From NCBI GenBank assembly GCA_964016885.1, contig CAXHJY010000904.1, forward strand, positions 1 through 13,735: a DNA stretch of 13,735 nt. Reading direction: 5' to 3'. This document shows, piece by piece, positions 1 through 13,735 of this stretch. The position numbers and the translations under genes are program-made. This stretch comes from Eledone cirrhosa. Taxonomy: Eukaryota. The notes under the pieces are model-generated. The model was not told the DNA's origin, made no database searches, and saw only the letters and a program-made list of their open reading frames with translations. Position 1 is the first letter of the stretch, and each line of letters starts with the position of its first letter.

Positions 1-345
1 GGCGAATAAAATTTCGTAGCTCTCTGAAATACAAAGGTCGCAGCCCTTGTGTCCTCCGTCGTAAGAGCGCGCTTTCTGGAGTATTTTCCAATTAAGCGTG
101 AAGGGGTGGAGTTCCTTTTGAGGTCCCAAACGTAGGAGGCGAGTGTTGTTTGGTTTGATTTATCCGGTCTTCTGAAGGAGTGGGTATGGCATACCAGCGG
201 GTCTTAAAGGTGTTGGAGGTCATGCCGATGTAAGATTTTTTGCAATCCTCGGTGCCCGAGATGACATCGCATTTGTATACGATGTCGTTTGTGAGGCATT
301 TGTTTTCTAGTGGGCATGTTTCCTTATTTAGGCAATTACATAGAG
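1..345 (-). mobile_element. Penelope-like retroelement fragment: Cys-rich linker plus GIY-YIG endonuclease domain, 5'-truncated at the microsatellite, two -1 frameshifts, runs off the left edge
   Basis: Manual minus-strand translation from 343: [51 protein letters not shown] / (1-nt loss ~189-190) HTHSFRRPDKSNQTTLASYVWDLKRNST / (1-nt loss in G-run 103-106) FTLNWKILQKARSYDGGHKGCDLCISESYEILFA. Shows CxCx5Cx5C, IVY (275-283)...YIG (224-232), the conserved R..H helix and CxLC-x2-E. This matches the C-terminal endonuclease of invertebrate PLEs and, from recall, the Naiad-type clade. Confidence 0.88.
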
Positions 346-384
<39 letters not shown>

Positions 385-823
385 ATATATATATTTATAT
401 ATATATATATGTATGTATATATATATATATTTATATATATATATATATGTATGTATATATATATATATTTATATATATATATATATATGTATGTATATAT
501 ATATATATTTATATATATATATATATATATGTATGTATATATATATATATTTATATATATATATATATATGTATGTATATATATATATATTTATATATAT
601 ATATATATATATGTATGTATATATATATATATTTATATATATATATATATATGTATGTATATATATATATATTTATATATATATATGTATGTATATATAT
701 ATATATTTATATATATATATGTATGTATATATATATATATTTATATATATATATGTATGTATATATATATATATTTATATATATATATGTATGTATATAT
801 ATATATATTTATATATATATATG

Positions 824-864
<41 letters not shown>

Positions 865-1065
865 ATATATATATATTTATATATATATATGTATGTATAT
901 ATATATATATTTATATATATATATGTATGTATATATATATATATTTATATATATATATATATATGTATGTATATATATATATATTTATATATATATATGT
1001 ATGTATATATATATATATATGTATGTATATATATATATATTTATATATATATATATATATGTATG

Positions 1066-1130
<65 letters not shown>

Positions 1131-1143
1131 ATATATAATATAT
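346..1143. repeat. Compound (AT)n micro/minisatellite with higher-order unit GTATG(TA)~7TTT(AT)n, about 30-42 bp
   Basis: Read directly: alternating GTATG and TTT interruptions of an (AT)n tract. The GTATG-to-TTT spacer is mostly (TA)7 and the TTT-to-GTATG spacer varies. Confidence 0.97.
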
Positions 1144-4100
1144 ATAAACGGAAAAAATGAAACGATATTTCATTTCCCACTCTTAGTACGGCTGTTACTT
1201 AAATATAAGTATGTACACGTACATACATATATGTATACCGACGTACAGTAGTATGTATATATATATATACATACATGCACACATATATATATGCACGTAT
1301 GGATTCACCGAACATTTATTATAATGCTCGGTGTGTTTGTAAACAAACATCCCGTATTAAGCCGTAGTGTCTAGCAACCACCGTTGCTCGTTTGTTCAAC
1401 ACTGACAAAGGAACGCTGTACTAGTTTCAAGCTTGTTAGCTATCGTCAGCAACGTATACCTTCCTGCCAGATTGTTGAACGTATATACTTACCTTATGCA
1501 TATTAACGGCTGAGTAGCCCAATATGCATATCGAGTGGGTTAATCGGCCGGGTGCACCGAAAACGATAAACGGAAAAAATGAAACGATATTTCATTTCCC
1601 ACTCTTAGTACGGCTGTTACTTAAATATAAGTATGTACACGTACATACATATATGTATACCGACGTACAGTAGTATGTATATATATATATACATACATGC
1701 ACACATATATATATGCACGTATGGATTCACCGAACATTTATTATAATGCTCGGTGTGTTTGTAAACAAACATCCCGTATTAAGCCGTAGTGTCTAGCAAC
1801 CACCGTTGCTCGTTTGTTCAACACTGACAAAGGAACGCTGTACTAGTTTCAAGCTTGTTAGCTATCGTCAGCAACGTATACCTTCCTGCCAGATTGTTGA
1901 ACGTATATACTTACCTTATGCATATTAACGGCTGAGTAGCCCAATATGCATATCGAGTGGGTTAATCGGCCGGGTGCACCGAAAACGATAAACGGAAAAA
2001 ATGAAACGATATTTCATTTCCCACTCTTAGTACGGCTGTTACTTAAATATAAGTATGTACACGTACATACATATATGTATACCGACGTACAGTAGTATGT
2101 ATATATATATATACATACATGCACACATATATATATGCACGTATGGATTCACCGAACATTTATTATAATGCTCGGTGTGTTTGTAAACAAACATCCCGTA
2201 TTAAGCCGTAGTGTCTAGCAACCACCGTTGCTCGTTTGTTCAACACTGACAAAGGAACGCTGTACTAGTTTCAAGCTTGTTAGCTATCGTCAGCAACGTA
2301 TACCTTCCTGCCAGATTGTTGAACGTATATACTTACCTTATGCATATTAACGGCTGAGTAGCCCAATATGCATATCGAGTGGGTTAATCGGCCGGGTGCA
2401 CCGAAAACGATAAACGGAAAAAATGAAACGATATTTCATTTCCCACTCTTAGTACGGCTGTTACTTAAATATAAGTATGTACACGTACATACATATATGT
2501 ATACCGACGTACAGTAGTATGTATATATATATATACATACATGCACACATATATATATGCACGTATGGATTCACCGAACATTTATTATAATGCTCGGTGT
2601 GTTTGTAAACAAACATCCCGTATTAAGCCGTAGTGTCTAGCAACCACCGTTGCTCGTTTGTTCAACACTGACAAAGGAACGCTGTACTAGTTTCAAGCTT
2701 GTTAGCTATCGTCAGCAACGTATACCTTCCTGCCAGATTGTTGAACGTATATACTTACCTTATGCATATTAACGGCTGAGTAGCCCAATATGCATATCGA
2801 GTGGGTTAATCGGCCGGGTGCACCGAAAACGATAAACGGAAAAAATGAAACGATATTTCATTTCCCACTCTTAGTACGGCTGTTACTTAAATATAAGTAT
2901 GTACACGTACATACATATATGTATACCGACGTACAGTAGTATGTATATATATATATACATACATGCACACATATATATATGCACGTATGGATTCACCGAA
3001 CATTTATTATAATGCTCGGTGTGTTTGTAAACAAACATCCCGTATTAAGCCGTAGTGTCTAGCAACCACCGTTGCTCGTTTGTTCAACACTGACAAAGGA
3101 ACGCTGTACTAGTTTCAAGCTTGTTAGCTATCGTCAGCAACGTATACCTTCCTGCCAGATTGTTGAACGTATATACTTACCTTATGCATATTAACGGCTG
3201 AGTAGCCCAATATGCATATCGAGTGGGTTAATCGGCCGGGTGCACCGAAAACGATAAACGGAAAAAATGAAACGATATTTCATTTCCCACTCTTAGTACG
3301 GCTGTTACTTAAATATAAGTATGTACACGTACATACATATATGTATACCGACGTACAGTAGTATGTATATATATATATACATACATGCACACATATATAT
3401 ATGCACGTATGGATTCACCGAACATTTATTATAATGCTCGGTGTGTTTGTAAACAAACATCCCGTATTAAGCCGTAGTGTCTAGCAACCACCGTTGCTCG
3501 TTTGTTCAACACTGACAAAGGAACGCTGTACTAGTTTCAAGCTTGTTAGCTATCGTCAGCAACGTATACCTTCCTGCCAGATTGTTGAACGTATATACTT
3601 ACCTTATGCATATTAACGGCTGAGTAGCCCAATATGCATATCGAGTGGGTTAATCGGCCGGGTGCACCGAAAACGATAAACGGAAAAAATGAAACGATAT
3701 TTCATTTCCCACTCTTAGTACGGCTGTTACTTAAATATAAGTATGTACACGTACATACATATATGTATACCGACGTACAGTAGTATGTATATATATATAT
3801 ACATACATGCACACATATATATATGCACGTATGGATTCACCGAACATTTATTATAATGCTCGGTGTGTTTGTAAACAAACATCCCGTATTAAGCCGTAGT
3901 GTCTAGCAACCACCGTTGCTCGTTTGTTCAACACTGACAAAGGAACGCTGTACTAGTTTCAAGCTTGTTAGCTATCGTCAGCAACGTATACCTTCCTGCC
4001 AGATTGTTGAACGTATATACTTACCTTATGCATATTAACGGCTGAGTAGCCCAATATGCATATCGAGTGGGTTAATCGGCCGGGTGCACCGAAAACGATA

Positions 4101-6967
4101 AACGGAAAAAATGAAACGATATTTCATTTCCCACTCTTAGTACGGCTGTTACTTAAATATAAGTATGTACACGTACATACATATATGTATACCGACGTAC
4201 AGTAGTATGTATATATATATATACATACATGCACACATATATATATGCACGTATGGATTCACCGAACATTTATTATAATGCTCGGTGTGTTTGTAAACAA
4301 ACATCCCGTATTAAGCCGTAGTGTCTAGCAACCACCGTTGCTCGTTTGTTCAACACTGACAAAGGAACGCTGTACTAGTTTCAAGCTTGTTAGCTATCGT
4401 CAGCAACGTATACCTTCCTGCCAGATTGTTGAACGTATATACTTACCTTATGCATATTAACGGCTGAGTAGCCCAATATGCATATCGAGTGGGTTAATCG
4501 GCCGGGTGCACCGAAAACGATAAACGGAAAAAATGAAACGATATTTCATTTCCCACTCTTAGTACGGCTGTTACTTAAATATAAGTATGTACACGTACAT
4601 ACATATATGTATACCGACGTACAGTAGTATGTATATATATATATACATACATGCACACATATATATATGCACGTATGGATTCACCGAACATTTATTATAA
4701 TGCTCGGTGTGTTTGTAAACAAACATCCCGTATTAAGCCGTAGTGTCTAGCAACCACCGTTGCTCGTTTGTTCAACACTGACAAAGGAACGCTGTACTAG
4801 TTTCAAGCTTGTTAGCTATCGTCAGCAACGTATACCTTCCTGCCAGATTGTTGAACGTATATACTTACCTTATGCATATTAACGGCTGAGTAGCCCAATA
4901 TGCATATCGAGTGGGTTAATCGGCCGGGTGCACCGAAAACGATAAACGGAAAAAATGAAACGATATTTCATTTCCCACTCTTAGTACGGCTGTTACTTAA
5001 ATATAAGTATGTACACGTACATACATATATGTATACCGACGTACAGTAGTATGTATATATATATATACATACATGCACACATATATATATGCACGTATGG
5101 ATTCACCGAACATTTATTATAATGCTCGGTGTGTTTGTAAACAAACATCCCGTATTAAGCCGTAGTGTCTAGCAACCACCGTTGCTCGTTTGTTCAACAC
5201 TGACAAAGGAACGCTGTACTAGTTTCAAGCTTGTTAGCTATCGTCAGCAACGTATACCTTCCTGCCAGATTGTTGAACGTATATACTTACCTTATGCATA
5301 TTAACGGCTGAGTAGCCCAATATGCATATCGAGTGGGTTAATCGGCCGGGTGCACCGAAAACGATAAACGGAAAAAATGAAACGATATTTCATTTCCCAC
5401 TCTTAGTACGGCTGTTACTTAAATATAAGTATGTACACGTACATACATATATGTATACCGACGTACAGTAGTATGTATATATATATATACATACATGCAC
5501 ACATATATATATGCACGTATGGATTCACCGAACATTTATTATAATGCTCGGTGTGTTTGTAAACAAACATCCCGTATTAAGCCGTAGTGTCTAGCAACCA
5601 CCGTTGCTCGTTTGTTCAACACTGACAAAGGAACGCTGTACTAGTTTCAAGCTTGTTAGCTATCGTCAGCAACGTATACCTTCCTGCCAGATTGTTGAAC
5701 GTATATACTTACCTTATGCATATTAACGGCTGAGTAGCCCAATATGCATATCGAGTGGGTTAATCGGCCGGGTGCACCGAAAACGATAAACGGAAAAAAT
5801 GAAACGATATTTCATTTCCCACTCTTAGTACGGCTGTTACTTAAATATAAGTATGTACACGTACATACATATATGTATACCGACGTACAGTAGTATGTAT
5901 ATATATATATATACATACATGCACACATATATATATGCACGTATGGATTCACCGAACATTTATTATAATGCTCGGTGTGTTTGTAAACAAACATCCCGTA
6001 TTAAGCCGTAGTGTCTAGCAACCACCGTTGCTCGTTTGTTCAACACTGACAAAGGAACGCTGTACTAGTTTCAAGCTTGTTAGCTATCGTCAGCAACGTA
6101 TACCTTCCTGCCAGATTGTTGAACGTATATACTTACCTTATGCATATTAACGGCTGAGTAGCCCAATATGCATATCGAGTGGGTTAATCGGCCGGGTGCA
6201 CCGAAAACGATAAACGGAAAAAATGAAACGATATTTCATTTCCCACTCTTAGTACGGCTGTTACTTAAATATAAGTATGTACACGTACATACATATATGT
6301 ATACCGACGTACAGTAGTATGTATATATATATATACATACATGCACACATATATATATGCACGTATGGATTCACCGAACATTTATTATAATGCTCGGTGT
6401 GTTTGTAAACAAACATCCCGTATTAAGCCGTAGTGTCTAGCAACCACCGTTGCTCGTTTGTTCAACACTGACAAAGGAACGCTGTACTAGTTTCAAGCTT
6501 GTTAGCTATCGTCAGCAACGTATACCTTCCTGCCAGATTGTTGAACGTATATACTTACCTTATGCATATTAACGGCTGAGTAGCCCAATATGCATATCGA
6601 GTGGGTTAATCGGCCGGGTGCACCGAAAACGATAAACGGAAAAAATGAAACGATATTTCATTTCCCACTCTTAGTACGGCTGTTACTTAAATATAAGTAT
6701 GTACACGTACATACATATATGTATACCGACGTACAGTAGTATGTATATATATATATACATACATGCACACATATATATATGCACGTATGGATTCACCGAA
6801 CATTTATTATAATGCTCGGTGTGTTTGTAAACAAACATCCCGTATTAAGCCGTAGTGTCTAGCAACCACCGTTGCTCGTTTGTTCAACACTGACAAAGGA
6901 ACGCTGTACTAGTTTCAAGCTTGTTAGCTATCGTCAGCAACGTATACCTTCCTGCCAGATTGTTGAA
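1144..6967 (-). repeat. Tandem array A of a 422-bp hammerhead-containing unit (13 full copies + 336-bp partial); retrozyme-like element, ribozyme sense on the minus strand
   Basis: Unit starts (ATAAACGGAAAAAATG) at 1144, 1566, 1988, 2410, 2832, 3254, 3676, 4098, 4520, 4942, 5364, 5786, 6210, 6632. Period is 422, except copy 12 (424 bp, one extra TA near 5898-5913). No substitutions seen by eye. Confidence 0.97.
1394..1480 (-). ncRNA. Type I hammerhead ribozyme motif (first of 14 minus-strand copies; others start at 1816, 2238, 2660, 3082, 3504, 3926, 4348, 4770, 5192, 5614, 6038, 6460, 6882)
   Basis: Reverse complement reads ACGUUG-CUGACGA-U-AGCU-AACA-AGCU-U-GAAAC-UA-GUA^CAGCGU. Helix I is ACGUUG/CAGCGU and the predicted cleavage falls between 1419 and 1418. 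Confidence 0.85.
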
Positions 6968-9609
6968 TCCATACGTGCATATATATATGTGTGCATATAT
7001 ATATGTGTGCATGTATGTATATATATATATACATACTACTGTACGTCGGTATACATATATGTATGTACGTGTACATACTTATATTTAAGTAACAGCCGTA
7101 CTAAGAGTGGGAAATGAAATATCGTTTCATTTTTTCCGTTTATCGTTTTCGGTGCACCCGGCCGATTAACCCACTCGATATGCATATTGGGCTACTCAGC
7201 CGTTAATATGCATAAGGTAAGTATATACGTTCAACAATCTGGCAGGAAGGTATACGTTGCTGACGATAGCTAACAAGCTTGAAACTAGTACAGCGTTCCT
7301 TTGTCAGTGTTGAACAAACGAGCAACGGTGGTTGCTAGACACTACGGCTTAATACGGGATGTTTGTTTACAAACACACCGAGCATTATAATAAATGTTCG
7401 GTGAATCCATACGTGCATATATATATGTGTGCATGTATGTATATATATATATACATACTACTGTACGTCGGTATACATATATGTATGTACGTGTACATAC
7501 TTATATTTAAGTAACAGCCGTACTAAGAGTGGGAAATGAAATATCGTTTCATTTTTTCCGTTTATCGTTTTCGGTGCACCCGGCCGATTAACCCACTCGA
7601 TATGCATATTGGGCTACTCAGCCGTTAATATGCATAAGGTAAGTATATACGTTCAACAATCTGGCAGGAAGGTATACGTTGCTGACGATAGCTAACAAGC
7701 TTGAAACTAGTACAGCGTTCCTTTGTCAGTGTTGAACAAACGAGCAACGGTGGTTGCTAGACACTACGGCTTAATACGGGATGTTTGTTTACAAACACAC
7801 CGAGCATTATAATAAATGTTCGGTGAATCCATACGTGCATATATATATGTGTGCATGTATGTATATATATATATACATACTACTGTACGTCGGTATACAT
7901 ATATGTATGTACGTGTACATACTTATATTTAAGTAACAGCCGTACTAAGAGTGGGAAATGAAATATCGTTTCATTTTTTCCGTTTATCGTTTTCGGTGCA
8001 CCCGGCCGATTAACCCACTCGATATGCATATTGGGCTACTCAGCCGTTAATATGCATAAGGTAAGTATATACGTTCAACAATCTGGCAGGAAGGTATACG
8101 TTGCTGACGATAGCTAACAAGCTTGAAACTAGTACAGCGTTCCTTTGTCAGTGTTGAACAAACGAGCAACGGTGGTTGCTAGACACTACGGCTTAATACG
8201 GGATGTTTGTTTACAAACACACCGAGCATTATAATAAATGTTCGGTGAATCCATACGTGCATATATATATGTGTGCATGTATGTATATATATATATACAT
8301 ACTACTGTACGTCGGTATACATATATGTATGTACGTGTACATACTTATATTTAAGTAACAGCCGTACTAAGAGTGGGAAATGAAATATCGTTTCATTTTT
8401 TCCGTTTATCGTTTTCGGTGCACCCGGCCGATTAACCCACTCGATATGCATATTGGGCTACTCAGCCGTTAATATGCATAAGGTAAGTATATACGTTCAA
8501 CAATCTGGCAGGAAGGTATACGTTGCTGACGATAGCTAACAAGCTTGAAACTAGTACAGCGTTCCTTTGTCAGTGTTGAACAAACGAGCAACGGTGGTTG
8601 CTAGACACTACGGCTTAATACGGGATGTTTGTTTACAAACACACCGAGCATTATAATAAATGTTCGGTGAATCCATACGTGCATATATATATGTGTGCAT
8701 GTATGTATATATATATATACATACTACTGTACGTCGGTATACATATATGTATGTACGTGTACATACTTATATTTAAGTAACAGCCGTACTAAGAGTGGGA
8801 AATGAAATATCGTTTCATTTTTTCCGTTTATCGTTTTCGGTGCACCCGGCCGATTAACCCACTCGATATGCATATTGGGCTACTCAGCCGTTAATATGCA
8901 TAAGGTAAGTATATACGTTCAACAATCTGGCAGGAAGGTATACGTTGCTGACGATAGCTAACAAGCTTGAAACTAGTACAGCGTTCCTTTGTCAGTGTTG
9001 AACAAACGAGCAACGGTGGTTGCTAGACACTACGGCTTAATACGGGATGTTTGTTTACAAACACACCGAGCATTATAATAAATGTTCGGTGAATCCATAC
9101 GTGCATATATATATGTGTGCATGTATGTATATATATATATACATACTACTGTACGTCGGTATACATATATGTATGTACGTGTACATACTTATATTTAAGT
9201 AACAGCCGTACTAAGAGTGGGAAATGAAATATCGTTTCATTTTTTCCGTTTATCGTTTTCGGTGCACCCGGCCGATTAACCCACTCGATATGCATATTGG
9301 GCTACTCAGCCGTTAATATGCATAAGGTAAGTATATACGTTCAACAATCTGGCAGGAAGGTATACGTTGCTGACGATAGCTAACAAGCTTGAAACTAGTA
9401 CAGCGTTCCTTTGTCAGTGTTGAACAAACGAGCAACGGTGGTTGCTAGACACTACGGCTTAATACGGGATGTTTGTTTACAAACACACCGAGCATTATAA
9501 TAAATGTTCGGTGAATCCATACGTGCATATATATATGTGTGCATGTATGTATATATATATATACATACTACTGTACGTCGGTATACATATATGTATGTAC
9601 GTGTACATA

Positions 9610-9616
<7 letters not shown>
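6964..9616 (+). repeat. Tandem array B: reverse complement of the same 422-bp unit (6 full copies + 105-bp partial); ribozyme sense on the plus strand
   Basis: Marker TGAATCC at 6964, 7402, 7824, 8246, 8668, 9090, 9512. Period is 422; the first interval is 438 because of a 16-bp duplication at 6975-7006. The array ends at ...GTACATACTTATAT (9616). Confidence 0.97.
7229..7315 (+). ncRNA. Type I hammerhead ribozyme motif (first of 6 plus-strand copies; others start at 7651, 8073, 8495, 8917, 9339)
   Basis: Helix I 5' ACGTTG 7254-7259; core CTGACGA 7260-7266; helix II T-AGCT-AACA-AGCT-T 7267-7280; GAAAC 7281-7285; TA; cleavage triplet GTA 7288-7290; helix I 3' CAGCGT 7291-7296. Helix I extends through AAGG/CCTT, CTGGCA/TGTCAG and GTTCAACA/TGTTGAAC. 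Confidence 0.85.
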
Positions 9617-9692
<76 letters not shown>

Positions 9693-9771
9693 ATACATAT
9701 ATATTTATATATATATATATATATGTATGTATATATATATATATATTGATATATATATATATATATGTATG

Positions 9772-9822
<51 letters not shown>

Positions 9823-9897
9823 ATATATATGTATGTATATATATATATATTTATATATATATATATATATGTATGTATATATATTTATATAAATATA
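9617..9897. repeat. Compound (AT)n block, near-copy of the block starting at 10039
   Basis: Shares rare interruptions with the downstream block: TATACATA (C9696 vs C10124) and TATTGATA (G9748 vs G10176). Confidence 0.9.
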
Positions 9898-10038
9898 TTT
9901 ACAAACACACCGAGCATTATAATAAATGTTCGGTGAATCCATACGTGCATATATATATGTGTGCATGTATGTATATATATATATACATACTACTGTACGT
10001 CGGTATACATATATGTATGTACGTGTACATACTTATAT
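9898..10038 (+). repeat. Isolated 141-bp partial copy of the 422-bp unit, without the ribozyme
   Basis: TTTACAAACACACCGAG...GTACATACTTATAT matches 9476-9616. TGAATCC at 9934 is exactly 422 bp after 9512. Confidence 0.95.
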
Positions 10039-13394
<3,356 letters not shown>

Positions 13395-13735
13395 AAATAA
13401 AGTTAAATAAAAGTCAAATGATTAAAATTTAGCTTCGTTTATTACTGCTATATATATTTCAGTGACAGCCATCTCTGGCTGTGACCTCTTCAGGCAGTTT
13501 GAATTAGTATGGTATAGACAAGTACATATGTTGTTTAGGTGTATGATATTGTCAATACTCTGATATGCCCAGTTCCTTGTTGGGTTGTTAATTCACTGGG
13601 GAACTGGAGTCATATGAATTCAAACAAACGAATTTTAGTGTCACAGGTCCCCTTCTCCTCTCATTGGTCAGTTATTAGTGTTGTCATTGTTGGAGTTAGC
13701 TTAAAAATTGATAAAATGGTAGAAGGGACAAGGTG
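13395..13735. other. Unique non-repetitive flank, unassigned (intronic/intergenic-like)
   Basis: AT-rich, with no ORF in the supplied track and no recognisable motif. Confidence 0.5.

What the first reader, a model, noticed from the sequence alone, without database searches (positions are those of the whole stretch)
1144..9616. Inverted-array geometry fits twin-primed rolling-circle reverse transcription of a circular RNA into an (AT)n target
Seen: the two arrays point outward in ribozyme sense (5' ends meet at 6964-6967), and both outer ends merge into (AT)n through short AT microhomology (TAT|ATAAACG at 1144; ACTTATAT|ATAT at 9616). The four array ends fall at four different unit phases (equivalent to 1144, 1479, 1307 and 1203 of copy 1), none at the cleavage site (1418/1419). 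The microsatellite has the same polarity on both sides, as expected for one interrupted tract, and the copies are near-identical. Established: twin priming gives this polarity in L1 inversions, and PLE insertions often carry inverted 5' segments. Inference: each 3' end of a cut (AT)n tract primed cDNA on a circular template (about 13.8 and 6.3 turns) and the two cDNAs were joined by microhomology.
Basis: inference. Interest (0 to 1): 0.82.

Follow-up and report, generated by a model that had tools for sequence, protein, structure and literature searches.

The report
Twin-armed hammerhead retrozyme insertion
This is a fresh back-to-back insertion of a 422-base repeat carrying a hammerhead self-cutting RNA motif, and across the genome the two arms of such insertions almost always end at two different fixed points, which suggests that a Penelope-type transposon enzyme likely copies the RNA, probably a small circle, from both ends of a cut AT microsatellite.

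Summary
The geometry is real. A 422-bp unit with a type I hammerhead forms head-to-head arms of 13.8 and 6.3 turns with no substitutions, joined by a 4-nt overlap inside a compound (AT)n tract.

In other loci 127 of 135 outer ends lie at two fixed sites, A (phase 1144) and B (phase 1203), and the genome holds 2,794 and 1,160 exact junctions. All 25 two-armed insertions in an end-blind sample are 5'-to-5', and 21 of 21 classifiable ones pair A with B. Inner ends are scattered. In 11 of 42 insertions neither arm can be a copy of the other, so single-strand fold-back is not the general route. Variants fixed in every unit of both arms favour a one-unit (circular) template, but no RNA was seen. Two neighbouring Penelope-like families show the same short/long end pairing.

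Verdict: a new animal non-LTR retrozyme with the Penelope footprint. Twin priming is well supported, a circle is likely, and the partner enzyme is unknown. This scan already noted the same pattern for other retrozyme families in this genome.

The parts
1..345 (-). 5'-truncated fragment of a Penelope-like element (family 'PLE-A'; Cys linker plus GIY-YIG region; frameshifted here)
   Evidence: (99% identical copies, 1,383 candidates)
346..1143 (.). compound (AT)n tract, left half of the target; interruptions of G/TT polarity
1144..6967 (-). retrozyme arm A: 13.8 turns of the 422-bp unit, RNA-sense 3' end at fixed site A (phase 1144)
1413..1455 (-). type I hammerhead of copy 1 (one per unit); predicted cut 1419/1418
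   Evidence: sequence; fold; 1,809 exact core copies in the genome
1144..1203 (-). 59-nt 'tail' between sites B and A, present at only one end of a two-armed insertion
6964..6967 (.). 4-nt overlap joining the 5' ends of the two arms; this junction occurs once in the assembly
6975..6996 (+). 16-nt local duplication near the 5' end of arm B
6964..9616 (+). retrozyme arm B: 6.3 turns, 3' end at fixed site B (phase 1203)
9617..11650 (.). compound (AT)n tract, right half, same polarity as the left tract
9898..10310 (+). direct duplication of the B-end junction (141 nt of unit plus about 280 nt of tract)
   Evidence: alignment
11660..13392 (.). compound (AT)n tract of opposite polarity
13393..13735 (-). 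3' end with hammerhead of a second young Penelope-like family ('PLE-B'; 894-aa RT plus GIY-YIG frame in locus L066)

Best explanation
The array is a recent insertion of a non-coding hammerhead repeat (an animal non-LTR retrozyme) whose two head-to-head arms end at two different fixed sites, likely because a Penelope-type enzyme cut an (AT)n tract and primed two cDNAs, one from each cut end, on what was probably a one-unit RNA circle. Shown: family-wide 5'-to-5' polarity; outer ends at site A or site B, one of each per insertion; scattered inner ends; arms of independent length; unit variants fixed across both arms. Inferred: transcription, hammerhead cutting and ligation to a 422-nt circle; binding by an asymmetric (probably dimeric) Neptune-like RT-endonuclease that places one DNA end at A and the other at B, helped by only 3-5 nt of AT pairing; multi-turn synthesis with strand displacement, or on two copies of the RNA; and joining of the two cDNA 3' ends by microhomology or short fill-in.
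For: Polarity: 25 of 25 two-armed insertions in 39 hammerhead-anchored loci are head-to-head. Ends: 127 of 135 3' ends lie at A or B. In the end-blind set 21 of 21 insertions with both ends at A or B are A/B (p about 4e-7); over all four sets it is 45 of 46. The genome holds 2,794 exact A junctions and 1,160 exact B junctions. Two primings: in 11 of 42 insertions neither arm lies within the other, against 12.0 (7-17) expected for independent arms and 0 for fold-back; arm A is the longer in 20 of 43. No template 5' end: 1 of 135 inner ends lies within 5 nt of the cut site. One-unit template: the two-change haplotype of L035 is in all units of both arms, and the 196-nt stretch has 7 exact hits genome-wide, all in that insertion. 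An RNA-sense A>G at phase 1234 is in 12 of 12 units of L121 and 5 of 5 of L122, both arms. Penelope link: PLE-B shows short/long end pairing in 5 two-armed copies and PLE-A in its two-armed copies. A purified Penelope-like protein cuts and extends both strands and starts at two internal RNA sites that bound the 'tail' (PMC11167929).
Against: No circle, transcript or cleavage was observed. Same-site insertions exist: L100 is B/B, L123 is A/A, and L110 was scored A/A but holds a B junction inside. 10 of 43 junctions are near-symmetric, more than the 3.4 expected (p 0.0015), which fits fold-back in a minority. L057 and L023 hold mixed unit types within one insertion, which points to multimeric templates, template switching or later conversion. 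In vitro the Anolis protein used mainly uncleaved RNA (PMC11167929). The two long old arrays are mosaics of unit types. No homology was found between the unit and the two neighbouring Penelope families, so the partner is not identified. L121 is not in an (AT)n tract.
Confidence: 0.65

Rival explanations
1. The same twin priming at sites A and B, but on a long uncleaved linear transcript of an existing homogeneous array, not on a circle.
For: Young arrays L011-L016 and the window share one unit sequence, so a multimer would look the same here. L057 and L023 are mixed. Unprocessed RNA was the main substrate in vitro (PMC11167929). Multimeric RNAs occur in axolotl (PMC7229834).
Against: A new mutation in one unit cannot become fixed in all units without a monomer amplification step. 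L035's haplotype has no other exact copy in the assembly (the assembly may lack the source). The phase-1234 change is all-or-none in L021, L121 and L122. There is no pile-up of inner ends at the cut site.
Confidence: 0.22
2. A single priming event, after which the cDNA folds back or self-primes and is copied as DNA to make the second arm (self-priming was proposed for Penelope head-to-head repeats in PMC3846280), with the second end set by endonuclease cutting.
For: 10 of 43 junctions are near-symmetric at hairpins or palindromes. In 31 of 42 insertions one arm could lie within the other.
Against: In 11 of 42 insertions neither arm can be a copy of the other, as many as expected for independent arms. 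This window's junction is asymmetric (1479 against 1307), and arm B lacks the AT slip that lies about 1,060 nt from the junction in arm A. In L023 the arms differ at phase 1557.
Confidence: 0.08
3. A satellite grown by unequal crossing-over, with a later inversion.
For: Two long old arrays show reshuffled unit types. Local amplification is the scenario discussed in bioRxiv 10.64898/2026.07.22.740005.
Against: It cannot give thousands of dispersed copies with fixed A/B ends and one polarity. There is no divergence gradient with distance (0.040-0.046 and 0.074-0.083 at all spacings; neighbour tests p 0.11 and 0.47). The window has 0 substitutions.
Confidence: 0.03
4. The inversion is a fold-back chimeric-read or assembly artefact on this small unplaced contig.
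For: The window is a whole 13.7-kb contig, and its junction occurs only there. No read spanning the junction was seen.
Against: A chimera would mirror the junction and the flanks. Here the phases differ, the flanks have the same polarity, and the two ends are the canonical A and B sites. The same layout is found at dozens of loci on chromosome-scale contigs. Read-derived contigs of run X1 (possibly the source sample) show (AT)n loose ends at site A and an opposite-strand joint.
Confidence: 0.02

Closest known systems
Animal non-LTR retrozymes (Cervera and de la Pena 2020, PMC7229834: passages and Discussion read; Li, Clavereau and Pollet 2026, bioRxiv 10.64898/2026.07.22.740005: part 1 of 5, passages and Discussion read)
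   Same: ORF-less, low-GC tandem unit with one type I hammerhead per unit; strongly folded predicted circle; co-occurs with Penelope-like elements; circle-templated tandem cDNA by a PLE was proposed there as a hypothesis.
   Different: The unit is 422 nt, just above the 170-400 nt RNAs reported. Neither text describes inverted arms, (AT)n targets or fixed ends: word search found 0 'inverted' and 0 'microsatellite' in PMC7229834, and one irrelevant hit each in the preprint (supplements not read). RNA was not demonstrated here.
Endonuclease-bearing Penelope-like elements, Neptune/Naiad type (Craig et al. 2021, PMC8557442: passages read; Arkhipova et al. 2013, PMC3846280: passages read)
   Same: 5'-truncated inverted copy joined head-to-head, a 'tail' often at one end only, and (TA)n target bias.
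   Different: No protein; multi-turn arms; a 59-nt tail against the 30-40 bp described. Those papers ascribe the tail to endonuclease resolution and the inversion to self-priming, whereas the arm-length test here favours two primings.
Anolis Poseidon PLE in vitro (Frangieh et al. 2024, PMC11167929: parts 1-2 of 4 read)
   Same: Both DNA strands are cut and extended, AT-rich targets are used, two internal RT start sites bound the tail, and a dimer is predicted.
   Different: The paper reports no difference in start site between strands, initiation without homology, and an uncleaved linear template. Here the ends pair A with B and carry 3-5 nt of AT match.
L1 twin priming (as described in PMC12016303: passages read; the 2001 original was not available)
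   Same: Two separately made cDNAs of opposite orientation, primed by the two DNA strands and joined at their truncated ends.
   Different: In L1 it occurs in about 20% of insertions, one primer sits at the poly(A) tail, the other start is variable, and overlap has a median of 12 bp. Here two arms are seen in 25 of 45 insertions, both starts are fixed, and the arms overlap by hundreds to thousands of bases.

Membership tests
Animal non-LTR retrozyme | Short tandem unit without ORF, LTR, PBS or PPT, low GC | tested here: met
   422-bp unit, 162 of 422 bases G+C; no LTR layout in the loci mapped; ORF absence judged from the sequence, no ORF scan run
Animal non-LTR retrozyme | Type I hammerhead in each unit | tested here: met
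   Core motifs, helix I and II and palindromic helix III in each unit (sequence); no Rfam hammerhead among the rows shown
Animal non-LTR retrozyme | Dispersed multi-copy family | tested here: met
   2,794 A-end and 1,160 B-end exact junctions
Animal non-LTR retrozyme | Self-cleavage of the RNA | not testable with these tools
   Needs an in vitro assay
Animal non-LTR retrozyme | Expressed as a monomeric circular RNA | tested here: inconclusive
   Circular fold -146.0 against -98.3 +/- 5.5 kcal/mol in 60 shuffles; indirect support from all-or-none variants; no RNA data
Penelope-mobilised element (insertion footprint) | Head-to-head 5'-truncated inverted copy | tested here: met
   25 of 25 two-armed insertions
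Penelope-mobilised element (insertion footprint) | Tail at one end only (two 3' end sites) | tested here: met
   45 of 46 A/B; further exceptions L100 and L123
Penelope-mobilised element (insertion footprint) | (TA)n target bias | tested here: met
   Flanks; L121 is an exception
Penelope-mobilised element (insertion footprint) | Sequence shared with the pLTR of an autonomous partner | tested here: inconclusive
   No blastn match to PLE-A or PLE-B element sequence; other PLE families were not examined
Autonomous Penelope-like element | RT plus GIY-YIG ORF | tested here: not met
   The unit is non-coding; such ORFs are only in the flanking families (Pfam gave only sub-threshold hits)
L1-type twin priming | Poly(A)-primed arm plus a largely non-overlapping internally primed arm | tested here: not met
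   No poly(A); arm A extends past site B in 42 of 43 insertions, and both arms exceed one unit in 13 of 43. It works like twin priming but is not an L1 product.

The most novel reading that the evidence does not exclude
Penelope-type elements insert by obligate asymmetric twin priming: one protein dimer holds a single RNA circle, assigns the two cut DNA ends to two different fixed start sites, and both reverse transcriptases roll round the circle with strand displacement. This one rule would explain the partial tandems, the head-to-head inversion and the one-sided tail of Penelope elements, and would make hammerhead 'satellites' single-step rolling-circle products that also fix RNA edits in every copy.
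Probability: 0.45. Interest if true: 0.75.

Novelty: new member of a known kind. Interest (0 to 1): 0.55.

Why it matters
How Penelope-like elements make their tandem and inverted insertions, and whether retrozymes move through their RNA circles, are stated as open in the papers read (PMC8557442, PMC7229834, the 2026 preprint). The short, very young retrozyme insertions give countable evidence: an A/B end rule, independent arms and all-or-none variants. They also give a minimal 422-nt substrate with two predicted start sites for the existing in vitro Penelope assay. The element class and the footprint are both known, and this scan has noted the pattern for other families in this genome, so the gain is mechanistic evidence and not a new kind of system.

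Tried and rejected
Rfam scan: only sub-threshold miRNA hits to the AT hairpin among 150 rows shown of 291; rejected as chance.

Sequencing runs: no RNA holder listed, which is no evidence either way. Only contigs were available for the unit stretch laid.

Empty-site allele: both flanks are high-copy Penelope elements, so none could be sought.

'AT microhomology plus accessibility picks the ends': rejected as a sufficient cause. A and B are fairly unpaired (0.69, 0.61) and the longest AU runs are paired (0.00, 0.32), but other open AU runs (phases 1317, 1355, 1441, 1455, 1482; 0.66-0.99) are not used.

'Flank polarity shows one interrupted tract' as a general test: uninformative, with 3 same, 2 opposite and 29 unscorable of 34. 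It holds for this window.

PLE-A or PLE-B as partner: no shared sequence. Retrozyme copies beside PLE-A ends in 2 of 8 loci are separated by (AT)n and look like nested insertions.

L021 as a private-haplotype test: not clean, since the variant has 32 hits including a 12-unit array. L031b heterogeneity was set aside because its duplicate L031c is homogeneous. Apparent mirrored variants in L052 were an alignment artefact at the junction. In one search two printed pair labels disagree with the counter, so only the total is used: 13 A-B pairs and no same-site pair in range.

Literature: five answered searches and one search listed no paper on twin priming or head-to-head arrays for retrozymes, judged from listings. 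Subscription journals and supplements were not covered. The look-up of earlier scan notes by sequence returned nothing.
Full report
1. Observation. The window is the whole of contig C931 in a 3.0-Gb assembly. A 422-bp unit runs 13.8 times from 1144 to 6967 and, inverted, 6.3 times from 6964 to 9616. There are no substitutions, one AT slip in unit 12 and a 16-nt duplication just inside arm 2. The minus strand of arm 1 carries a type I hammerhead (1413-1455), with the cut predicted at 1419/1418. This is read from the sequence and a fold; Rfam showed no hammerhead among the rows listed. The circular unit folds at -146.0 kcal/mol against -98.3 +/- 5.5 in 60 shuffles. The compound (AT)n tract has one polarity on both sides up to about 11650 and then flips. 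The right junction is duplicated at 9898-10310.

2. Surroundings. Positions 1-345 are a truncated piece of a Penelope-like element (PLE-A); an intact copy has a 758-aa frame that resembles RT and GIY-YIG clusters in the Atlas. Positions 13393-13735 are the hammerhead-bearing 3' end of a second family (PLE-B; 894-aa frame in L066, copies over 99% alike). Both have a C-terminal GIY-YIG preceded by a Cys linker, which PMC8557442 gives for the Neptune and Nematis clades; no tree was built. Both flanks are high-copy, so no empty site could be sought.

3. The family. The hammerhead core has 1,809 exact copies. I fetched the 41 loci behind the first 100 hits, the loci of the top BLAST hits, 19 loci anchored on A ends and 20 on B ends. 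One search classified 39 of the 41 end-blind loci; two long arrays were left out, as were arms under 83% identity, under 60 nt or touching a locus end. Of 45 insertions, 25 are two-armed, 19 one-armed and 1 a pair of adjacent insertions. All 25 are 5'-to-5'. 21 have one end at A (1144-1150) and the other at B (1196-1211), none is A/A or B/B, and 4 have one off-site end (one of these, L016, is B by exact mapping). Over all four sets 127 of 135 3' ends are at A or B, and 45 of 46 two-site insertions are A/B. Exceptions found by targeted looks are L100 (B/B) and L123 (A/A). Genome-wide there are 2,794 exact A junctions and 1,160 exact B junctions (the B pattern is stricter, so the ratio means little). 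Inner ends are spread over the unit (n=135; chi-square p 0.04 for a mild unevenness; 4 at A or B; 1 within 5 nt of the cut site). PLE-B shows a short end on one arm and a tailed end on the other in 5 two-armed copies, and PLE-A shows the same.

4. Two primings or one. If the second arm were a DNA copy of the first, one arm would always lie within the other. In 11 of 42 A/B insertions neither does, against 12.0 (7-17) when arm lengths are permuted. A is the longer arm in 20 of 43. Of 21 junctions examined by exact extension, 11 show overlaps of 1-10 nt and 10 show inserts of 1-18 nt. However, 10 of 43 junctions are near-symmetric (expected 3.4, p 0.0015). This may be two like cDNA ends annealing at a hairpin, or true fold-back in a minority; PMC3846280 proposed self-priming from such palindromes. 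This window's junction is not symmetric.

5. Circle or linear multimer. The window alone cannot decide, because other young arrays share its unit. L035 carries two changes in all units of both arms, and the 196-nt stretch holding both has 7 exact hits, all in that insertion. An RNA-sense A>G at phase 1234 is present in 12 of 12 units of L121, 5 of 5 of L122 (424-nt spacing) and 4 of 4 of L021. The A>G at phase 1322 is in 6 of 6 units of L124. Among rare variants fixed within an insertion, 5 distinct sites are A>G and none T>C in RNA sense (p 0.03), while single-unit changes are balanced (68 against 70). This is a small sample that hints at RNA editing copied into every turn; the lead came from an earlier scan note. 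Against a pure monomer model, L057 and L023 are mixed, and two old long arrays are mosaics without a distance gradient. No RNA was available to test expression.

6. Mechanism. Most likely the unit is transcribed, cut by its hammerheads and ligated to a circle (established for coral, mussel and axolotl retrozymes, PMC7229834; inferred here). A Penelope-type RT-endonuclease cuts both strands of an (AT)n tract and extends both ends (shown in vitro for the Anolis protein, PMC11167929). One end starts at A and the other at B. Site choice is probably set by the protein, since longer or equally open AU runs are not used. Each RT runs a variable number of turns, which needs strand displacement on one circle or two RNA copies. 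The two cDNA ends are then joined by a short overlap. My odds: twin priming at two fixed sites by Penelope machinery about 0.88; circular one-unit template given that about 0.73; together about 0.65.

7. Known and new. The element fits animal non-LTR retrozymes on every feature that could be tested, and its footprint is the known Penelope one (PMC8557442). Circle-templated tandem cDNA by a PLE was proposed in PMC7229834, and the 2026 preprint links the two by distribution and phylogeny while invoking local amplification for the tandems. My searches and the passages read gave no statement of the A/B pairing rule or of twin priming for retrozymes; supplements and subscription papers were not seen. 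Earlier notes of this scan reached similar readings for 310-, 434-, 467-, 473-, 483- and 556-nt units in this genome. They are not independent evidence, but they show the pattern is not special to this window.

8. Verdict. A real feature and a new member of a known kind. Interest 0.55.

Noticed in passing
window 346-1143, 9617-11650, 11660-13392: The flanking tract is an unusually long compound repeat. The part next to PLE-B is an inverted relative of the same code, which suggests tract amplification and inversion during insertion or repair. Most other loci have short plain (AT)n flanks.
   Followed up: partly
window 9898-10310; L011 4811-4975: The B-end junction with its flank is duplicated, here in tandem and in L011 inside the insertion. 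This may reflect template switching during repair.
   Followed up: partly
L065-L068, L026, L027 (PLE-B); L069-L076 (PLE-A): Two young autonomous Penelope-like families, each with over 1,300 search candidates, intact 894-aa and 758-aa frames, hammerheads and short/long end pairing with tails of roughly 95 and 70 nt.
   Followed up: partly
L036+L079 (C1 about 51.77 Mb) and L038+L039 (C1 about 53.35 Mb): Long old arrays (34 and 35 units examined) are mosaics of unit types, with near-identical pairs far apart and no neighbour similarity.
   Followed up: partly
L121 2243-7162: A young B/A insertion with 12 variant-bearing units sits in an A-rich site and not in (AT)n; it could give a readable target site.
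   Followed up: no
L031 and L080: Whole insertions with their flanks are repeated in tandem, so segmental duplication happened after insertion.
   Followed up: no
runs X4, X5, X6 (organisms B, C, D): Contigs of runs labelled as other organisms hold the unit. X4 has the laid 311-nt stretch without differences at low depth, which may be a relative, contamination or this DNA's source.
   Followed up: no
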